Positions 9,288 through 63,552 of a stretch of DNA of 64,000 nucleotides are shown here, piece after piece. Position 1 is the first letter of the stretch. The number at the start of each line of letters is the position of its first letter. Origin of the DNA: Patescibacteria group bacterium (GTDB lineage Bacteria; Patescibacteriota; Patescibacteriia; Patescibacteriales; JBAZCA01); the NCBI GenBank assembly GCA_041661505.1, contig JBAZUF010000001.1, positions 177,576 to 241,575 on the forward strand, given 5' to 3'. Made by a program: the position numbers and the translations under genes. The notes beneath the pieces are model-generated. The model searched no databases. It was given only the letters and a program-made list of their open reading frames with translations, and was not told where the DNA came from.

Positions 9288-10514
9288 TTATTCTGACAAA
9301 TTTTTAAATTCCAAATCTTTTAGGAGAACTTCCGGGTCAACCCGCAAGGCCTCTTTGTTTATTCCCATAAGCCGCATGCCTGCCAAAGTCCTTACCCTTG
9401 AGAGCGCGACGTAGCCCATGCCGTATTCAAATGATCGCGACAAATCAATTTCCGCCGCGTCCAGGCTCATGCCCTGACTTTTATGGACCGTAATGGCCCA
9501 AGCGAGGCGCAAGGGGATCTGTGAGATTGCGGCTAAAACCGTCTCGTCTTCCTCAATTTCCCAGCTGGATGAAACGGCGACAATTTCCTTATCCGATCTG
9601 GTTTTGACAATCGGATAATTATCCTCGTTAAAACCGATTATAACGCCCAATGTTCCGTTCACGTAACCGGCGTCAAAATTATTTTTTACGAACATTACCA
9701 TGGCCCCGGTTTTTAATTTCAGTTCTTCGGGCGCCAGACAGGCTTTCTTTAAAAAATTTATAAGCTCCCGCGGGCCGCGTTCGGTCATTTTATAGGCCAG
9801 CTCTTCTCCGGCAACGCGCGAGAGTTCATAGCTGTTTATCGCGTCTACATCGGCGTTATGGGTATAAAGCTTTGTGGGTTTCGCCAGGCCGTTTATCGGC
9901 TTATAAAGCCGCTTTTTTAACATACTCATTTCATCCGCTCCGGCCTCGTTATTCCTGATCCGGTTAAGAATTCCAGTGAACGCCGAATCATCCTGCCTAA
10001 ACTGCTCGTCAAGATAGCAGACTCTTGCCTTAGCCTCTTTCCAGGCCGAGGATTCATAAGCGAACTTCGCGTCTTTATCAACCGGCGGAAGCTGAAAAAA
10101 ATCGCCGCTCATGACAATCTGGATTCCGCCGAACGGTAAAAACGGATTTTTAACCGCTTTGCATATCTCGTCCGCAAGATTAAGCCGGTCGGCGTCCAGC
10201 ATGGATATTTCATCAATAATCAGGACTTGCGCCTCTTCAATCCTTTGCCTGGTCTTTTTATTCCTAAGGATTTTACTTATTTTTTTCTGGCTTAACTTTT
10301 TCTCAATGCCGATTCCCGCCCAGGAATGGATGGTCCGGCCGCCGATATGGGTGGCGGCGATGCCGGTTGAAGCGGTAATCCCGGCCTTAGTTTTTTCATC
10401 TTTCAGCCAGCCGATGAATTTATTTATCAAAAAAGTCTTCCCCGTTCCGGCCGATCCGGTCAAAAAGACATTTTCTCCCGATTTTAATATTTTAAGGGCT
10501 TGGGATTGGGTCAT
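9288..10514 (-). CDS. Pif1/RecD-like superfamily-1 helicase
   Basis: Walker A LTGSAGTGKTF, Walker B LIIDEISML, the sequence GDFFQLPPV, and C-terminal ITVHKSQGMSLD...YVALSRVR. The ATG at 10514 is used because the track start at 10535 is a TTG. Confidence 0.85.
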   Translation of the reverse strand: MTQSQALKILKSGENVFLTGSAGTGKTFLINKFIGWLKDEKTKAGITASTGIAATHIGGRTIHSWAGIGIEKKLSQKKISKILRNKKTRQRIEEAQVLIIDEISMLDADRLNLADEICKAVKNPFLPFGGIQIVMSGDFFQLPPVDKDAKFAYESSAWKEAKARVCYLDEQFRQDDSAFTGILNRIRNNEAGADEMSMLKKRLYKPINGLAKPTKLYTHNADVDAINSYELSRVAGEELAYKMTERGPRELINFLKKACLAPEELKLKTGAMVMFVKNNFDAGYVNGTLGVIIGFNEDNYPIVKTRSDKEIVAVSSSWEIEEDETVLAAISQIPLRLAWAITVHKSQGMSLDAAEIDLSRSFEYGMGYVALSRVRTLAGMRLMGINKEALRVDPEVLLKDLEFKNLSE

Positions 10515-10560
10515 TGGTAGTGAATTACTTCTCAATAATACTATAGCCTACAAAACAAGA

Positions 10561-10590
10561 ATAAAAAAGAGGCGTATTTCCCCGCCTCTT
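10561..10590 (-). terminator. Intrinsic terminator closing the LexA-like/MazF/TcmP/three-Cys operon
   Basis: An 8-bp stem aagaggcg/cgcctctt with an 8-nt loop, followed on the minus strand by TTTTTTAT. Confidence 0.7.
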
Positions 10591-10609
10591 TCACAATCCT
10601 GTTTAAATT

Positions 10610-11464
10610 CTAAACCGCGTAACTAAATAACCGATTTGACGCGCTTCTAAATATCTCCTCGGTCTTTTTATCGTCAACTTTCTTAGTTCCGTATTTTATA
10701 TGGTAGTCAATGTTATTCTTCATGCAAAAATTAATCACAATACCCGCTTGCTCCTCGTAAAAATTCTTATTACTTCCGAAATCCGAAACTTTTACGTTAT
10801 AATTCAGCTTGCCAAAAATTATTTTATCAACGAATTTTATTTCCTTCAATATCGTCGTTAAATCCTGCTTTACAAGATTGGGTGTTGGATAAGGCTCCAT
10901 GCTCACCCAGGTTTTAAGGCCATTGTCGTGTAAATATTTCAAGGATTTTATCCGCTCGTTATACGGCGCCGCCCCCGGTTCAAATCTTTTCTTAAAATTA
11001 TCGTCCAGCGAAACCAAAGTTATCGCGTATTCATTGTTTTTTCCGTAAATATCCGAATCAACTAAGTCTTTCGGGTAAATCCCTTTAGTAAGCACGGTGC
11101 ATTTAATATTGTCTTGATTAAACCTTTTAATGATTTTTAGGGTTAACTCACCGATTTCATTTTGGCCGTACATAAACGGGTCGGTGGTAAAACATAAATG
11201 TACGAATTTAATCTTGTCTTTCAGCCTGGGAATTTCTTCATCCAGAAGTTCCAGCGCGTTTTCCACGATTTTCGGCTTAATCCAGTCGTCATAATCTTTT
11301 ATCACCCCGCATCTTTTTTTCATATTCATGGCGTAGCAGGGAAAGCGGCAGCCATGCGAACACCCTTCTGCGTGGTTAACGCAATAATCAGCGTACTCAA
11401 CGCCGCTTTTATAGAGAAGTGATTTTCGTTGAATTTTTTTAAGCATGAGGATGTCAGTTTTCAT
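10610..11464 (-). CDS. Radical-SAM-like three-Cys protein with non-canonical CX3CX3C spacing (DNA-repair-photolyase/SplB-like or Gp37/Gp68-like; family uncertain)
   Basis: Contains VNHAEGCSHGCRFPCYAM near the N-terminus and has the length and pattern of a TIM-barrel-like protein. It lies 11 nt downstream of the TcmP-like gene. ATG at 11464. Confidence 0.55.
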   Translation of the reverse strand: MKTDILMLKKIQRKSLLYKSGVEYADYCVNHAEGCSHGCRFPCYAMNMKKRCGVIKDYDDWIKPKIVENALELLDEEIPRLKDKIKFVHLCFTTDPFMYGQNEIGELTLKIIKRFNQDNIKCTVLTKGIYPKDLVDSDIYGKNNEYAITLVSLDDNFKKRFEPGAAPYNERIKSLKYLHDNGLKTWVSMEPYPTPNLVKQDLTTILKEIKFVDKIIFGKLNYNVKVSDFGSNKNFYEEQAGIVINFCMKNNIDYHIKYGTKKVDDKKTEEIFRSASNRLFSYAV

Positions 11465-47579: not shown

Positions 47580-47586
47580 AGGAATG

Positions 47587-47776
47587 ATAATGAAAAGGTA
47601 ATTTTTATGAGTGAGTTTTTGAAAAATTATGGTAAATATTGATGAAAAATTTTTGTTATAAAATTTTACTGTTTGAGCGAAGCGGAGCCGAGCGAGTTTA
47701 AAATTTTGTTAAAAAATTTTTCATCAATGCCATAATTTTTCAGTCAGCGAGTGAATAAAAATTACCTTTTCATTAT
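47587..47776. repeat. 190-bp long imperfect inverted repeat (MITE-like or structured-RNA-like) with AT-rich arms and a GC-rich centre
   Basis: Terminal 21-bp perfect arms ataatgaaaaggtaattttta / taaaaattaccttttcattat. Further perfect blocks are tgaaaaattatgg and attgatgaaaaattttt. The centre is gtttgagcgaagcggagccgagcgagttt. Confidence 0.7.
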
Positions 47777-47789
47777 AACACAAAAAAAG

Positions 47790-47824
47790 CCTTCAAAAAA
47801 CCAGCCCCTTTAAGCTGGTTTTAA
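47790..47824 (-). terminator. Intrinsic terminator after secY
   Basis: aaaaccagc-ccctttaa-gctggtttt, followed by a U-rich tract on the minus strand. Confidence 0.6.
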
Positions 47825-47845
47825 CCGAATGTCTTGCAAATTTTG

Positions 47846-51340: not shown

Positions 51341-51353
51341 ATATTCTTATTTC

Positions 51354-51458
51354 ATCAAGTCAAAATTTAATGGCAGTAGGACTTGTCCGCTATTAAATTT
51401 TGACTTGATACCTTATATTTTTTGAAAGTATTGAAAACTTTTTTAAAAAAGTTTTCAA
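51354..51458. repeat. Composite intergenic repeat, copy A: 18-bp-arm hairpin, conserved 21-nt spacer and a 28-bp perfect palindrome
   Basis: atcaagtcaaaatttaat-(20 nt GC-rich loop)-attaaattttgacttgat; spacer accttatattttttgaaagta; palindrome ttgaaaacttttttaaaaaagttttcaa. Homologous to 57057-57163 in the inverted orientation. Confidence 0.8.
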
Positions 51459-51461
51459 ATT

Positions 51462-51872: not shown

Positions 51873-51933
51873 ATTTTATTAAATGATAATTTCTTATTGA
51901 TAATTGTTAATTGAAAATTGACAATTGGGCTTA

Positions 51934-53054: not shown

Positions 53055-53079
53055 ATTCTTAAAAAAGTTTTCAAATTCT
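53055..53079. repeat. Half-copy of the palindrome motif filling the rplN-rplX spacer
   Basis: taaaaaagttttcaaattct is identical to the distal half of copy A. On the minus strand it reads TAG-AGAATTTGAAAACTTTTTTAA. Confidence 0.7.
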
Positions 53080-53967: not shown

Positions 53968-53983
53968 ATGCTATATTTTCATC

Positions 53984-54016
53984 TTTTAAAACCTGCCTGC
54001 CGGCAGACAGGAAGTT
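53984..54016 (-). terminator. Hairpin plus short U-run between rplP and rpmC (second copy of the CTTCCTGYCTG...CAGGCAGG hairpin)
   Basis: The minus strand reads CTTCCTGTCTG-CCGG-CAGGCAGG-TTTT. The single arm difference forms G-U on the minus-strand RNA but C-A on the plus strand. Confidence 0.45.
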
Positions 54017-54023
54017 TTCAAAT

Positions 54024-55186: not shown

Positions 55187-55283
55187 ATTATATTCAATTT
55201 ACAATTGTCAGTTAATCAATTTTCAATGGCTTAATTCTTCTTCATTTTAATTGATAATTGCTCATTGTTATCTGATAATTGAT

Positions 55284-57050: not shown

Positions 57051-57056
57051 AGATAT

Positions 57057-57163
57057 TTGAAAACTTTTTTAAAAAAAGTTTTCAACGCTTTCAAAAAATA
57101 TAATGTATCGAATAAAATTTTTATAGCGGGCAAAGCCCTAGGGCCATAAAAATTTTATTCGAT
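57057..57163. repeat. Composite intergenic repeat, copy B (inverted relative to copy A)
   Basis: Palindrome ttgaaaacttttttaaaaaaagttttcaa; spacer cgctttcaaaaaatataatgt; hairpin atcgaataaaatttttat-(21 nt GC-rich loop)-ataaaaattttattcgat. The arm sequences differ from copy A but remain perfectly complementary. Confidence 0.8.
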
Positions 57164-59339: not shown

Positions 59340-59600
59340 ACGCTTAACTGGATTGTTCTTTAAACAAAAAAACTGGTCTTAACACAAAAACCAGCATAAC
59401 AATTTATCGCCGTTTCTTTGTTGTGTTTTAGACTTTTTTAGAGAAAATATTCTCCTCTTCTTTGGTGCTAATTATTATAGGACTTTCCCTCGCGTTTTGC
59501 AACCCCCCTGGGAGTACCTATAATTATCGGCTCCAAATTTTAAATAACCGCGCCTTTTCCGCCTCTTCTGCCTCTTTAGGCAACAAGTTCAGCGGACAAG

Positions 59601-62053: not shown

Positions 62054-62257
62054 TTAAAGACAATTAATGTCAATATTAGTGATTTTTATAATATTGCCAA
62101 GCGTGCCTTTTCGCAACTCCTTGTGGTTGGGGACAATAACAATTATCTTATTCTTCTTCAGCTTTATGTGGCTTCCTTTTTGGGATGCTAATTCAAATCC
62201 CTCTTTTATCAGGGTTTTTACCAACTGTTCTCCCGAAATTTAGGGCAATTTAGGCAT
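62054..62257 (-). pseudogene. hicA: hicA-type toxin gene interrupted by an in-frame TAA at codon 6
   Basis: Manual translation gives MPKLP*ISGEQLVKTLIKEGFELASQKGSHIKLKKNKIIVIVPNHKELRKGTLGNIIKITNI.... The HicA hallmarks (PKLP.SG.E..K.L...GF......GSH) are present. The ATG overlaps the hicB stop by 8 nt. Confidence 0.65.
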
Positions 62258-62483
62258 AACTGCATTTTACTTCTACCGGAACCATAAATTCATTCTCGCT
62301 CTCGATTTCGCAGAATTTTTTTTCATTTCCTTCCAGATATAATTCAATAGCTTCTTTAATATTTTTAATAGCCTCTTCAAAAGTATCACCCTGGGAAAAA
62401 CAGCCCGGCAACGAAGGAACGCTTACGCTATAGCCCCCATCCGCCTCTTCGGAAAAAATTACGTTGTACTTTTTTAGTTCCAT
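62250..62483 (-). CDS. hicB: HicB-family antitoxin (UPF0150 fold, no DNA-binding extension)
   Basis: YNVIFSEEADGGYSVSVPSLPGCFSQGDTFEEAIKNIKEAIELYLE. Confidence 0.8.
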   Translation of the reverse strand: MELKKYNVIFSEEADGGYSVSVPSLPGCFSQGDTFEEAIKNIKEAIELYLEGNEKKFCEIESENEFMVPVEVKCSYA

Positions 62484-62635
62484 ATTTTTAAAAGTCCGAA
62501 AAATCGCTCTCCCTAGAGCTTTTCAAATCTTCTTTAATATTATATGAATTTAAAAAAAGCGTCAAGAGTCCCGAAAGAAGTTAAAAACGGGTGGCAGCCC
62601 GTCTTTATGCTTGTTATATTCGTTAAATATTAAAC

Positions 62636-63256
62636 TCACGCCTCTAAAATTTTATTGGCTTCCGCCGCTATCTTTTTTTTCACCGCTTCCCAGTCCGTTT
62701 TTTTTATCATAATCGGCATCGGCTCATCTTCGGCATCTTCAAAAAAAACCAAACTTTTCAGTATGTGCAGCTTATTGTATTTTATATTTTGAAATTTTTT
62801 TTCAAAAAACCCGATTAATTCCGGCAACCGGTATTTTAGAAGCAAATAATAAATATCAATAAAATCTTTTTTACTGCCTCGGGAAGAGGCGGCGTCAATT
62901 TTCATAGCCGCGATATCTCTTTCATCGGCCAGCTTTATTCCCTCCCAACCGATTAACGGATAAAGCAGGCTATAGTCGTAGCGTAAAAAACTGACTTTCA
63001 CGCCGTCTAGCGCTCCATGCAGAGTCCATTCTTCTTCGCCGGACAATTTAAACTCGCCAAGGACGGATATTTTTTTCTTTACGGCTTCCAAAGAAAAACT
63101 ATCGGCCGTAAACCAGTCAAGATCGATAGATATTCTATGCCCAAGCTGGAGCGCTAAAGCCGTACCTCCAGCCAGATAAAAACTATCGGCTATACCGCTC
63201 CCGGCAATCTTTTCCAAAACGCGCCTTGTTTCCTGGCTGACTGTTTTTTCAAACAT
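62636..63256 (-). CDS. Nucleotidyltransferase AbiEii/AbiGii-family toxin
   Basis: FYLAGGTALALQLGHRISIDLDWF and SRGSKKDFIDIYYL. Confidence 0.75.
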   Translation of the reverse strand: MFEKTVSQETRRVLEKIAGSGIADSFYLAGGTALALQLGHRISIDLDWFTADSFSLEAVKKKISVLGEFKLSGEEEWTLHGALDGVKVSFLRYDYSLLYPLIGWEGIKLADERDIAAMKIDAASSRGSKKDFIDIYYLLLKYRLPELIGFFEKKFQNIKYNKLHILKSLVFFEDAEDEPMPIMIKKTDWEAVKKKIAAEANKILEA

Positions 63257-63492
63257 TTATTTTTATCTATGTTAAAATACTGGCACCAAAAAGAAAATGA
63301 TTTTTTATTCAAAACCGCCCCGCTCCCCGGCACCAAACTTTTTATCGCTTCCAAACCGTAAAACTTCCTCGCCCACCGGAAGTCGTCTAAATCTCCGGCG
63401 TCCAATATCCGGCGGATTACAAACACCTTGTTTTTTACCGCATTAATTTTGTCCGTATCCCAAAAAAGCGCTTTTTTTTCGGTTGGTTTCAT
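63190..63492 (-). CDS. Cognate antitoxin-like partner of the AbiEii-type gene
   Basis: ALFWDTDKINAVKNKVFVIRRILDAGDLDDFRWARKFYG...LNKKSFSFW, a pattern I associate with partners found upstream of small AbiEii genes. It overlaps the toxin ORF by 67 nt. Confidence 0.5.
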   Translation of the reverse strand: MKPTEKKALFWDTDKINAVKNKVFVIRRILDAGDLDDFRWARKFYGLEAIKSLVPGSGAVLNKKSFSFWCQYFNIDKNKCLKKQSARKQGAFWKRLPGAV

Positions 63493-63552
63493 ACTAATAT
63501 TATACACTATTTGGCGTTTTTTGCAAAGATTTTAAGGTGGCCAAATTTTCCC

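What the first reader, a model, noticed from the sequence alone, without database searches (positions are those of the whole stretch)
51341..51461. Composite ~110-bp repeat present in opposite orientations in two spacers of the ribosomal-protein operon, with compensatory arm changes
Copy A lies in the rpsH-rplF spacer (51354-51458). Copy B lies in the rplW-rplB spacer (57057-57163). Both share the same three parts:
- an 18-bp perfect-arm hairpin with a ~20-nt GC-rich loop;
- a nearly identical 21-nt spacer (ac[ca]ttatattttttgaaag..);
- a 28/29-bp perfect palindrome TTGAAAACTTTTTT|AAAAAAGTTTTCAA.

Copy B is inverted relative to copy A. The hairpin arms differ in sequence (atcaagtcaaaatttaat versus atcgaataaaatttttat), yet each is perfectly self-complementary. 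In other words, the structure is conserved by covariation.

Spacers of 116-121 nt inside the S10/spc operon are unusual in themselves. The elements could be REP/MITE-like DNA elements, RNA processing or stability elements, or internal promoter or terminator modules.
Basis: seen in the sequence. Interest (0 to 1): 0.58.

Follow-up and report, generated by a model that had tools for sequence, protein, structure and literature searches.

The report
Dispersed two-hairpin repeat in Parcubacteria operons
The two look-alike spacers are real copies of a previously undescribed ~106-base, two-hairpin repeat that fills gaps between co-transcribed, highly expressed genes in one group of tiny uncultured bacteria, so it is a dispersed repeat family and not a regulator specific to these ribosomal genes.

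Summary
Copy A (51354-51459, minus strand) and copy B (57056-57163, plus strand) share one architecture: an AT palindrome (H1), an invariant A-rich linker, and an 18-bp hairpin (H2) with a conserved GC-rich loop.

The window is a Patescibacteria/Parcubacteria contig. I found 54 distinct copies in relatives and metagenomes.
- Size: the canonical form is 104-108 nt.
- Pairing: 98% of stem positions are paired. 14 of 18 H2 pairs show double changes. There is no G·U excess, which is a DNA-type pattern.
- Position: copies fill whole spacers. The upstream stop lies 3-9 nt before and the downstream start 6-24 nt after.
- Orientation: only copy B and its orthologue are antisense to the flanking genes.
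- Location: about half lie in ribosomal or translation operons.
- Density: copy number is low.
- Turnover: occupied sites differ between close relatives, and copies are more conserved than the flanking genes.

There is no Rfam match, no terminal inverted repeats, no consistent target duplication, no promoter or terminator consensus and no literature hit.

Best reading: a low-copy ERIC/REP-like interspersed repeat, propagated or homogenised as DNA and retained only in the sense orientation. It may serve as intercistronic mRNA punctuation; that part is inferred.

The H1-plus-tail core also occurs in high copy in gut Clostridia, Desulfobacterota and Planctomycetota genomes. This is unexplained.

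The parts
51354..51459 (-). Copy A, complete element. It is sense to the operon and fills the rpsH(S8)-rplF(L6) spacer.
   Evidence: Covariance-model hit of 113.7 bits, E=3e-17; sequence.
51431..51458 (-). Copy A, H1: 28-nt perfect palindrome TTGAAAACTTTTTT|AAAAAAGTTTTCAA. It starts 3 nt after the rpsH stop codon.
51410..51430 (-). Copy A, A-rich single-stranded linker. In mRNA sense it reads TACTTTCAAAAAATATAAGGT. It is almost invariant across the family.
   Evidence: columns 31-51.
51354..51409 (-). Copy A, H2: 18-bp perfect arms (51354-51371 and 51392-51409) around a 20-nt conserved loop. In the family model the loop carries a mini-stem (GGAC/GTCC in this copy).
   Evidence: the single-sequence fold pairs the loop differently on the mRNA strand.
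57056..57163 (+). Copy B, complete element. The element's sense strand is the plus strand, so it is antisense to the operon. It fills the rplW(L23)-rplB(L2) spacer.
   Evidence: Covariance-model hit of 123.9 bits, E=6.5e-19. An orthologous antisense copy in L166 carries one compensated arm change.
57057..57085 (+). Copy B, H1: 29-nt palindrome.
57086..57106 (+). Copy B, linker CGCTTTCAAAAAATATAATGT.
57107..57163 (+). Copy B, H2: arms 57107-57124 and 57146-57163, 21-nt loop with mini-stem GGGC/GCCC.
53059..53075 (-). Remnant in the rplN(L14)-rplX(L24) spacer: the first 17 nt of the element (TTTGAAAACTTTTTTAA). Relatives L186, L142, L203 and L205 carry a full copy in this spacer.
53983..54023 (-). 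H1 variant in the rplP(L16)-rpmC(L29) spacer: TTTGAAAAC..GTTTTAAAAG arms around the GC palindrome CCTGTCTGCCGGCAGGCAGG. Relative L131 has a full element in this spacer.

Best explanation
Copies A and B belong to a low-copy family of ~106-nt interspersed repeats found in one clade of Parcubacteria (Patescibacteria).

Each unit has three parts:
- H1, a 26-29-nt AT palindrome.
- An invariant A-rich linker, CTTTCAAAAAATATA.
- H2, an 18-bp hairpin of variable sequence. Its conserved top carries a 2-bp GC clamp, a covarying 4-bp mini-stem, an AAA loop and a TACG bulge.

What is shown:
- The unit occupies whole spacers between co-directional genes, starting a few bases after the stop codon and ending about 10 nt before the next start.
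- The same strand almost always lies in the mRNA.
- About half of all copies lie in ribosomal-protein or translation operons.
- Occupied sites differ between relatives.
- Copies at non-orthologous sites can be identical in H2 (arms and loop).
- Copies are more conserved than the neighbouring ribosomal genes.
- The stems keep strict Watson-Crick pairing with no wobble excess.

What is inferred:
- The unit is copied, exchanged or homogenised between spacers at the DNA level. Either an unidentified enzyme recognises it as a hairpin, or template-switch correction keeps the palindromes perfect.
- It persists only where and in the orientation in which it does not disturb operon expression.
- In that orientation the mRNA carries a hairpin at the end of the upstream cistron, an exposed A-rich stretch, and a hairpin just before the downstream cistron. 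It probably acts as harmless or mildly useful intercistronic punctuation for processing or stability.

It is not a regulator dedicated to rpsH/rplF or rplW/rplB.
For: Family and architecture:
- 54 distinct copies were found.
- The 43 canonical copies align over 108 columns at 91% mean identity, with 51 invariant columns.
- Length is 104-106 nt from the TGAAAAC core to the end of H2. A few copies of 121-144 nt carry nested GC hairpins.

Structure:
- 98.4% of cells are paired. 14 of 18 H2 pairs and 3 of 4 mini-stem pairs change on both sides, and 0 of 500 shuffles reach this.
- RNAalifold gives the same fold.
- There are 34 distinct arm sequences among 54 copies. Mismatches are 3 G·U, 7 A·C and 11 other among 970 pairs.

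Context:
- A same-strand ORF stops within about 10 nt of the TGAAAAC core in 41 of 54 copies, typically 3-9 nt before it.
- A same-strand ORF starts near H2 in about 44, typically 6-24 nt after it.
- Only window copy B and its orthologue L166 are antisense.

Sites:
- Occupied spacers are S8-L6 (7 loci), L14-L24 (4), L18-S5 (3), S12-S7 (2), L23-L2 (2), L16-L29 and S10-L3.
- Copies also flank SSB and lie upstream of L25, S11, NusG, YidC and pilin genes, and downstream of PilT.
- 29 of 54 copies lie in translation-related operons.

Turnover:
- L129 and L130 are 95-98% identical in coding DNA, yet only L130 has the element in the S8-L6 spacer.
- The L16-L29 copy of L131 has the same H2 as window copy A. 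The S8-L6 copy of L131 has a different H2.
- The window keeps remnants where relatives have full copies.

Conservation: copies are 84-92% identical to the window copies, while flanking ribosomal genes are 66-80% identical.

Low density: there are 2 copies in 84 kb of the source contig.

Nothing else explains it: no Rfam family and no promoter or terminator consensus.
Against: - No mobilising enzyme, terminal repeats or consistent target duplication was found, so mobility is inferred from distribution only.
- Low copy number, near-absolute sense orientation, fixed distances to stop and start codons, enrichment in highly expressed operons, and retention of the S8-L6 site in 7 lineages 66-80% identical in flanking DNA all look more like a selected cis-acting RNA element than like selfish DNA.
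- The invariant unpaired linker points to sequence-specific recognition that I could not identify.
- Copy numbers come from fragmentary metagenome contigs and one strict search pattern. Whole-genome counts and orientation relative to replication are unknown.
- No transcript data were available.
Confidence: 0.6

Rival explanations
1. The element is a selected intercistronic RNA module and not mainly a DNA repeat. H1 protects the 3' end of the upstream cistron. The A-rich linker is an endonuclease or ribosome/protein landing site. H2 protects or tunes the 5' end of the downstream cistron. Highly expressed operons recruit it for that reason.
For: - 52 of 54 copies are not antisense to their flanking genes, and spacing to stop and start codons is fixed.
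- 29 of 54 copies lie in ribosomal or translation operons.
- Copy density is low.
- The linker is invariant and unpaired.
- Copies are more conserved than the adjacent coding DNA.
- The fold is stable, z = -6 to -8.
- From my own knowledge: ERIC and Correia/NEMIS repeats are known to alter mRNA stability through RNase E or RNase III.
Against: - There is no G·U excess in the sense strand, and AU<->UA flips are as common as transitions. The antisense strand folds equally well.
- One antisense site is kept in two lineages.
- Close relatives do without the element at the same spacers.
- No transcript data are available.
Confidence: 0.25
2. The element is a classical non-autonomous transposon or a hairpin-recognised element: a TIR-MITE, an IS200/IS605-derived PATE, or a REP mobilised by a RAYT. 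A transposase encoded elsewhere in the genome moves it.
For: - The distribution is dispersed, with presence/absence polymorphism and identical H2 modules at different sites.
- Stems follow a Watson-Crick-only pattern.
- Stems vary while the bulge and loop are conserved, as in hairpins recognised as single-stranded DNA.
- Small GC palindromes are nested inside copies.
Against: - There are no terminal inverted repeats and no consistent target-site duplication.
- The two hairpins are unrelated to each other, unlike the left and right ends of IS200/IS605 elements.
- There is no 5' GTAG-type motif.
- Copy number is low.
- No transposase recurs next to copies of the H1+tail core in other phyla; neighbours of the Parcubacteria copies were not screened for transposases.
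- Polymorphic sites look like whole-spacer replacement, not clean insertion.
Confidence: 0.15
3. The element is a Nus-factor (boxA-type) loading site, or another processive-antitermination or RNA-chaperone signal, carried into long, highly expressed operons. H1 would act as a boxB-like hairpin and the linker CUUUCAAAAAA, or the left end CCUUUGAAAACU, as boxA.
For: - The linker ACTTTCAAAAAA and the left end CTTTGAAAAC resemble the boxA consensus GYTCTTTAANA (PMC5725501).
- They also resemble the Mollicutes rRNA-spacer sequence GTTCTTTGAAAACTGAAT used as a PCR primer (PMC3019172). That this sequence is boxA is my own recollection.
- Copies are sense-only and lie in translation operons and upstream of nusG.
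- PMC5725501 reports boxA near translation genes and rpsJ in gamma-proteobacteria.
Against: - The resemblance was recalled, not tested.
- The C before TTTG, critical in boxA, is not conserved. The window copies have A.
- The left-end motif is buried in H1.
- CTTTGAAAAC is not enriched elsewhere in the window (16 matches against 11.3 expected).
- Copies sit mid-operon, not in leaders.
- No rRNA locus of the clade was available to learn its own boxA.
Confidence: 0.07
4. The element is an internal promoter and/or terminator module that subdivides the S10/spc operon.
For: - In the antisense reading, H2 is followed by a U-rich stretch (ACnnUAUAUUUUUUGAAAG), which resembles the hairpin + TTTTTTGAAGG terminator after secY in the same genome.
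- A weak TTCAAA-17-TAAAAT match lies in copy B.
Against: - No promoter or terminator consensus hit falls in copy A, and none of the terminator type falls in either copy.
- In the sense reading neither hairpin is followed by a U-tract.
- The candidate -10 hexamer TATAAn varies exactly at its last, normally essential, position.
- Copies sit inside operons encoding ribosomal components.
Confidence: 0.05
5. The element is an operon-specific autoregulatory RNA, a binding-site mimic for S8, L6, L23 or L2, or else a chance similarity.
For: Copy A lies directly after rpsH. From my own knowledge, ribosomal-protein operons are often controlled by mRNA mimics of rRNA sites.
Against: - The same element lies between unrelated genes: SSB, pilins, PilT, YidC, NusG and ArsR-type genes.
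- It is absent from these spacers in close relatives.
- No Rfam ribosomal-protein leader matches.
- Shuffles, the covariance model and covariation exclude chance.
Confidence: 0.02

Closest known systems
ERIC / IRU elements of enterobacteria (comparison from my own knowledge)
   Same: - Imperfect palindromes of about 100-130 nt that lie only in transcribed intergenic regions, often inside operons.
- Low to moderate copy number.
- More conserved between species than the neighbouring genes.
- Presence/absence between relatives.
- Size variants with internal insertions.
- No transposase known.
- Reported effects on mRNA stability.
   Different: - ERIC is one long palindrome found in both orientations. 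This element is two unrelated hairpins joined by an invariant A-rich linker, with sense orientation in 52 of 54 copies.
- The host phylum differs.
- There is no sequence similarity.
REP/BIME elements mobilised by RAYT (TnpA-REP) (comparison from my own knowledge)
   Same: - Extragenic palindromes at gene ends and between cistrons.
- Stems kept by compensatory change.
- Presumably recognised as hairpins.
- Can stabilise upstream mRNA.
   Different: - REPs are 20-40 nt and present in hundreds of copies. They carry a conserved 5' GTAG-type tetranucleotide and flank a RAYT gene.
- Here the unit is 106 nt, copy number is low, there is no such tetranucleotide and no RAYT was seen.
MITEs such as Correia/NEMIS, RUP, BOX (comparison from my own knowledge)
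   Same: - Short non-coding dispersed repeats.
- Co-transcribed with neighbouring genes.
- Hairpins that RNases can cleave.
   Different: MITEs have terminal inverted repeats and target-site duplications (TA for Correia elements). Neither is consistently present here.
Single-stranded-DNA hairpin sites: integron attC, IS200/IS605 ends (comparison from my own knowledge)
   Same: - Stem sequence varies while pairing stays strict.
- Unpaired or bulged bases are conserved (TACG bulge, AAA loop).
- The site is strand-specific, which gives it a direction.
   Different: - The attC core GTTRRRY/RYYYAAC is absent, there is no integrase, and ribosomal genes are not cassettes.
- IS200/IS605 ends carry two similar hairpins. 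Here H1 and H2 are unrelated.
nut / rrn antitermination sites (boxB hairpin + boxA)
   Same: A hairpin is followed by a short conserved single-stranded CUUU-A-rich box. The site works only in the sense orientation and occurs in long, highly expressed operons. The boxA consensus GYTCTTTAANA comes from PMC5725501.
   Different: - The match to boxA is partial.
- The position is mid-operon and not in the leader.
- A second long hairpin is present.
- The comparison could not be tested.

Membership tests
Any Rfam 15 RNA family | Score at or above the family's gathering threshold. | tested here: not met
   No gathering-level match in the window or in 17 related loci. Searches by E-value gave only chance microRNA-like hairpin hits far below threshold.
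MITE (TIR transposon derivative) | Terminal inverted repeats at the two ends of the element. | tested here: not met
   The left end (C)CTTTGAAAAC and the right end ...ACTTGAT are not inverted copies of each other.
MITE (TIR transposon derivative) | Target-site duplication flanking each copy. | tested here: not met
   No constant direct repeat was seen at the junctions (visual inspection of the flanks, not a formal count). About 19 of 43 right junctions read T|AA, a weak excess that I judge inconclusive. Polymorphic sites look like whole-spacer replacement.
REP/BIME (RAYT-associated) | Palindromes of 20-40 nt in hundreds of copies per genome. | tested here: not met
   The unit is 104-108 nt. 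There are 2 copies in 84 kb of the source contig and single strict matches on contigs of 40-220 kb.
REP/BIME (RAYT-associated) | A RAYT (Y1 HUH) gene flanked by the repeats, and a conserved tetranucleotide 5' of the hairpin. | not testable with these tools
The called genes in the loci around the window include no Y1 transposase family, and no conserved 5' tetranucleotide is seen.
IS200/IS605-derived PATE | Two similar subterminal hairpins (left and right end) bound by one TnpA. | tested here: not met
   H1 (AT palindrome, 2-4-nt loop) and H2 (18-bp stem, 21-nt structured loop) are unrelated.
Intrinsic terminator | A GC-rich stem immediately followed by a U-tract on the transcribed strand. | tested here: not met
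   No terminator-like site falls in either element. In the sense reading, H1 is followed by AAUACUUUC and H2 by A-rich sequence. In the antisense reading the U-run starts 8 nt after H2.
Sigma-70 promoter | -35 and -10 hexamers at 16-18 nt spacing, with conserved A2 and T6 in the -10. | tested here: not met
   Only one weak 9/12 match, in copy B. The TATAAn hexamer varies at position 6 across copies.
Ribosomal-protein autoregulatory leader | Tied to one operon or protein and conserved at that position. | tested here: not met
   The same element lies between unrelated genes and is missing from the same spacers in relatives.
boxA/nut-type Nus site | A match to the organism's own rRNA boxA (GYTCTTTAANA in gamma-proteobacteria), single-stranded, in the sense orientation. 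| tested here: inconclusive
   Partial matches only: CTTTCAAAAAA and CTTTGAAAAC. The critical C is not conserved at the left end. No rRNA locus was available.
Integron attC | R''/R' core sites RYYYAAC...GTTRRRY, and cassette arrays next to an integrase. | tested here: not met
   Core sites are absent from the consensus. The flanking genes are ribosomal and other housekeeping genes.
CRISPR / TIGR-type arrays | Tandem arrays of repeats separated by spacers of regular length. | tested here: not met
   Copies are single, kilobases apart, and separated by genes.
ERIC-like intergenic repeat (works like) | A conserved palindromic unit restricted to transcribed intergenic regions, polymorphic between relatives, with no transposase. 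| tested here: met
   This is a functional analogy only; there is no sequence homology.

The most novel reading that the evidence does not exclude
The hairpin-plus-A-rich-tail core is [stem]GAAAACTTTTTT-G(A)-AAAAAAGTTTTC[stem'] followed 4-6 nt later by CTTTCAAAAAA. It would be a portable, orientation-dependent cis-acting signal read by a factor common to very different bacteria, for example an RNase, the Nus complex or a recombinase.

The core is shared by the Parcubacteria element and by abundant gene-end repeats in gut Clostridia, Desulfobacterota and Planctomycetota. In Parcubacteria it would be coupled to a second hairpin and act as a standard intercistronic 'punctuation' or antitermination module in ribosomal and other highly expressed operons.
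Probability: 0.15. Interest if true: 0.8.

Novelty: new variant of a known kind. Interest (0 to 1): 0.55.

Why it matters
Candidate-phyla-radiation bacteria have tiny genomes with very little non-coding DNA and almost no described cis-acting elements or repeats.

A 106-nt structured unit that fills intercistronic gaps could be either of two things:
- A tolerated parasite with unusually strict rules. It keeps one orientation, favours ribosomal and other highly expressed operons, and is more conserved than the ribosomal genes around it.
- A reusable mRNA-processing or antitermination signal.

Either reading bears on how these organisms organise operon expression.

The element is also a practical warning. 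Perfect compensatory change in a hairpin does not by itself show an RNA function.

The shared core motif in several phyla, present in many copies and absent from Rfam and from the literature I could search, is a concrete target for metatranscriptomic and biochemical work.

Tried and rejected
- Rfam searches at gathering and E-value thresholds on the window and 27 loci gave nothing.
- Full-text literature searches by sequence and by topic (Parcubacteria or CPR repeats, MITEs) found nothing relevant.
- BLAST of the core motif against annotated plasmids and phages gave only two chance hits inside a gene, or none.
- I looked for a protein family that always neighbours the core motif. There is none; the top cluster is an ABC transporter.
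- Promoter and terminator consensus scans found nothing convincing in the elements.
- Terminal inverted repeats, target-site duplication and a 'TAA' duplication are not consistent across copies.
- I tested whether stop codons are supplied by the element. This happens only occasionally: a TGA within TTTGA in L186.
- The covariance model found no further or diverged copies in the window, its 20-kb flanks or 110 loci beyond those already known.
- The boxA lead could not be tested. No rRNA locus is among the fetched DNA, the motif is not enriched in the window, and the key comparative paper is not held.
- A pseudoknot or alternative pairing between the H1 centre and the tail is possible on paper. 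The columns are invariant, or do not covary in the Parcubacteria copies, so there is no evidence for it.
- The idea that the L129 spacer keeps a recognisable right end of the element was dropped. Only the last ~15 nt before the start codon align.
Full report
**What is in the window**

The window is the reverse complement of part of a 335,486-bp metagenome contig (ENA ERZ27249449, k141_1664978). Its L6 protein is annotated 'Patescibacteria group bacterium'. The next relatives are 79% identical, and the named relatives are Parcubacteria or Falkowbacteria.

The tuf-S10-spc gene string runs on the minus strand from 61277 to 47846. As is usual for this radiation, there is no L30 gene.

**The observation**

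Both spacers are as described. The order below is the reading on the mRNA strand.

Copy A:
- rpsH stop codon, then 3 nt.
- H1: a 28-nt perfect palindrome, 51431-51458.
- Linker TACTTTCAAAAAATATAAGGT.
- H2: 18-bp perfect arms at 51354-51371 and 51392-51409, with a 20-nt loop.
- 13 nt, then the rplF start codon.

Copy B is the same unit on the other strand:
- H1 at 57057-57085.
- Linker at 57086-57106.
- H2 at 57107-57163.

The two copies are 84% identical over 73 nt in inverted orientation.

Shuffles never reproduce the palindrome. The exact half-site TTGAAAACTTTTTT occurs five times in 64 kb, always in spacers of this operon. Either strand of either spacer folds 6-8 standard deviations better than shuffles.

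The loops are homologous, not merely GC-rich.

Two further spacers hold fragments:
- rplN-rplX carries TTTGAAAACTTTTTTAA (53059-53075).
- rplP-rpmC carries an H1 variant whose centre is replaced by a GC palindrome (53983-54023).

**A family, not a pair**

I retrieved operons of relatives through their L6 proteins:
- L131 (79% L6 identity) has the element in the S8-L6 and L16-L29 spacers.
- L130 has it in S8-L6.
- L129 has a variant in S10-L3 and none in S8-L6 or L23-L2.
- L133 has none.

A genome-collection scan for the palindrome found a full copy between two non-ribosomal genes in Parcubacteria CG2_30_45_37 (L092).

A metagenome scan for the linker (CTTTCAAAAAATATANNGTAT) returned 103 loci, about 45 of which carry the complete unit.

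In all there are 54 distinct copies. The 43 canonical ones align without difficulty: 108 columns, 91% mean identity, 51 invariant columns.

A covariance model built from them finds only copies A and B in the window. It finds nothing more in 20 kb of extra flank or in the other loci. Copy density is therefore low:
- Two copies in 84 kb of the source contig.
- Single strict matches on metagenome contigs of 40-220 kb.

**Structure**

On the alignment, 98.4% of cells form standard pairs, against 90.5% after shuffling.
- 18 of 37 pairs change on both sides.
- No shuffle, and no version with every 3' partner shifted by 1-3 columns, comes close.

In detail:
- H2 has 14 of 18 pairs with double changes.
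- A 4-bp mini-stem inside the loop covaries at 3 of 4 pairs.
- A 2-bp GC clamp, an AAA loop and a TACG bulge are invariant or nearly so.
- H1 covaries once (G-C to A-U).

RNAalifold predicts the same fold independently.

There are 34 different arm sequences among the 54 copies.

One-sided (wobble) changes are almost absent. The 21 non-Watson-Crick pairs among 970 are 3 G·U, 7 A·C and 11 other. AU<->UA flips are as frequent as transitions.

That pattern is expected for a DNA hairpin, or for palindromes kept perfect by template-switch correction. It is not the usual signature of an RNA helix, and the antisense strand folds equally well. Covariation therefore proves that pairing is maintained. 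It does not show at which level.

**Context**

Context points the other way, towards transcription.
- In 41 of 54 copies a same-strand ORF stops within about 10 nt of the TGAAAAC core, typically 3-9 nt before it.
- In about 44 copies a same-strand ORF starts near H2, typically 6-24 nt after it.
- The rest are at locus edges or could not be called.
- Only copy B and its orthologue L166 are antisense. L166 is about 80% identical to the window in flanking DNA and has one arm change compensated on the other side.

Clustering of flanking proteins, alignment to the window and Pfam show these sites:
- S8-L6 (7 loci)
- L14-L24 (4)
- L18-S5 (3)
- S12-S7 (2)
- L23-L2 (2)
- L16-L29
- S10-L3
- Both sides of SSB
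- Upstream of L25, S11, NusG and YidC
- Upstream of pilin genes, downstream of PilT, and others

Translation-related operons hold 29 of 54 copies. The figure is 23 of 45 if the window and the loci fetched through L6 are left out.

**Turnover and conservation**

- L129 and L130 are 95-98% identical in coding DNA but differ completely in the S8-L6 spacer: 50 nt without the element against 118 nt with it. They also differ in three other spacers.
- The H2 of window copy A (S8-L6) is identical to that of the L16-L29 copy of L131. The S8-L6 copy of L131 has another H2.
- The window keeps only 17 nt in the L14-L24 spacer, where four relatives have full copies. 'Empty' L14-L24 spacers of other relatives are 7-26 nt.
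- Copies are 84-92% identical to the window copies, while the surrounding ribosomal genes are 66-80% identical.
- Some copies carry small GC palindromes nested in the loop or between the modules. One of these is the same CCTGYCTGCCGGCAGGCAGG found in the window's rplP-rpmC spacer.

**What it is not**

- No Rfam family matches.
- No sigma-70 or intrinsic-terminator consensus falls in the element. The TATAAn hexamer of the linker varies at its last position.
- There are no terminal inverted repeats and no consistent target duplication.
- No paper in the library contains the sequences or describes such repeats in this radiation.

**A wider core motif**

The genome scan for the palindrome hit its 120-locus ceiling. 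Most hits were gut Clostridia MAGs, many with several contigs each. Others were Desulfobacterota and Planctomycetota MAGs, with locus GC of 0.37-0.73.

In 106 of 129 instances a tail (C)CTTTCAAAAAACTT follows on exactly one side, 4-6 nt after the stem. The background rate for such a one-sided tail is 1.3%. None has it on both sides.

Once oriented by the tail:
- The loop begins with G in 94 of 106.
- The AT core is extended by a 4-7-bp GC stem of variable sequence and strict Watson-Crick pairing: 589 Watson-Crick, 1 G·U, 7 A·C, 5 other.
- Where a long ORF lies within 200 nt upstream, it is on the same strand in 50 of 61 cases, typically ending within about 30 nt of the hairpin core.
- Those upstream genes are unrelated to each other: pyruvate kinase, TIM, GroEL, S2, hydrogenase, SmpB and others.

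No neighbouring protein is constant. Annotated phages and plasmids hold no copy.

The Parcubacteria element has the same arrangement: H1, 2 nt, CTTTCAAAAAA. It therefore looks like this core joined to a clade-specific second hairpin. I could not establish what reads the core.

**Leads**

The left end CCTTTGAAAACT and the linker ACTTTCAAAAAA resemble boxA antitermination boxes.
- The gamma-proteobacterial consensus is GYTCTTTAANA (PMC5725501).
- The Mollicutes rRNA-spacer sequence GTTCTTTGAAAACTGAAT is used as a PCR primer (PMC3019172). That this sequence is boxA is my recollection.

This is a recalled resemblance, not a test.
- The critical C is not conserved at the left end.
- The motif is not enriched elsewhere in the window.
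- No rRNA locus of the clade was available.

**Conclusion**

The finding is real and statistically solid. It belongs to a previously undescribed family of structured intergenic repeats.

The best-supported account is an ERIC/REP-like unit that is exchanged between intercistronic spacers as DNA and is retained only in the sense orientation in highly expressed operons.

Whether it is merely tolerated there, or serves as mRNA punctuation or an antitermination signal, cannot be decided without transcript-end data and whole-genome censuses.

Noticed in passing
L004-L123 (genome-contig hits); e.g. L117:1076-1140 and 2076-2140, L029:3494-3560, L017:354-420: An oriented ~60-nt motif lies just downstream of unrelated genes in many gut Clostridia MAGs, and also in GC-rich Desulfobacterota and Planctomycetota MAGs. 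It reads [variable GC stem]GAAAACTTTTTT-G(A)-AAAAAAGTTTTC[stem'] N4-6 CCTTTCAAAAAACTT. It is often at contig ends and in many copies per genome. It is not in Rfam and has no constant neighbouring protein. It shares the H1+tail core with the window element.
   Followed up: partly
window 47580-47845 (secY-terC spacer, minus strand): The spacer holds a terminator-like hairpin + TTTTTTGAAGG and an extended -10 (TGTTATAAT). These are followed by a ~190-nt long imperfect palindrome bounded by 22-nt perfect arms (47587-47608 and 47755-47776). A spacer of similar length and layout precedes the TerC gene in L131 and L129. This may be a leader or riboswitch-like element, but no Rfam hit (for example yybP-ykoY) was found.
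   Followed up: no
window 59340-59600 (rpsJ-rplC spacer, minus strand): This 261-nt spacer lies inside the S10 operon. It has a good promoter-like site (TTGCAA-17-TATAAT, 59502-59474) and a hairpin + T-run (59395-59372) just before rplC. Relatives have 333-463 nt here. It resembles a leader or attenuator placed after rpsJ.
   Followed up: no
window 51873-51933 and 55187-55283; L129, L130, L131 spacers: Other spacers of the operon carry AT-rich inverted repeats built from short units (CAATTG/GATAATTG in the window; GATTGAA, TTAGTA and others in relatives). Nearly every spacer longer than 40 nt can form a hairpin, and the unit sequence differs between lineages.
   Followed up: partly
window 53992-54011; L172:~270-300; L206; L129:1650-1710: A second tiny palindrome family (CCTGYCTGCCGGCAGGCAGG and similar GC hairpins) is found alone in the rplP-rpmC spacer. 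It is also nested inside loops or linkers of element copies in other genomes.
   Followed up: partly
L129:8230-8407 (L14-L24 spacer of a relative): A 178-nt GC-richer insert is bounded by long inverted repeats (GGTCTAGCCTGGGCGGATAAG...CTAGACTAG / ...CTAGTCTAGG). It sits where other relatives have 7-26 nt or the two-hairpin element. It is a different structured insert.
   Followed up: no
window 62054-63507 and L238:3747-4399, 10001-11007: Toxin-antitoxin-type and abortive-infection-type genes (HicB-like, AbiEii, nucleotidyltransferase/HepT pair) lie between the str (S12-S7-EF-G) and tuf-S10 gene blocks. These blocks are usually adjacent.
   Followed up: no
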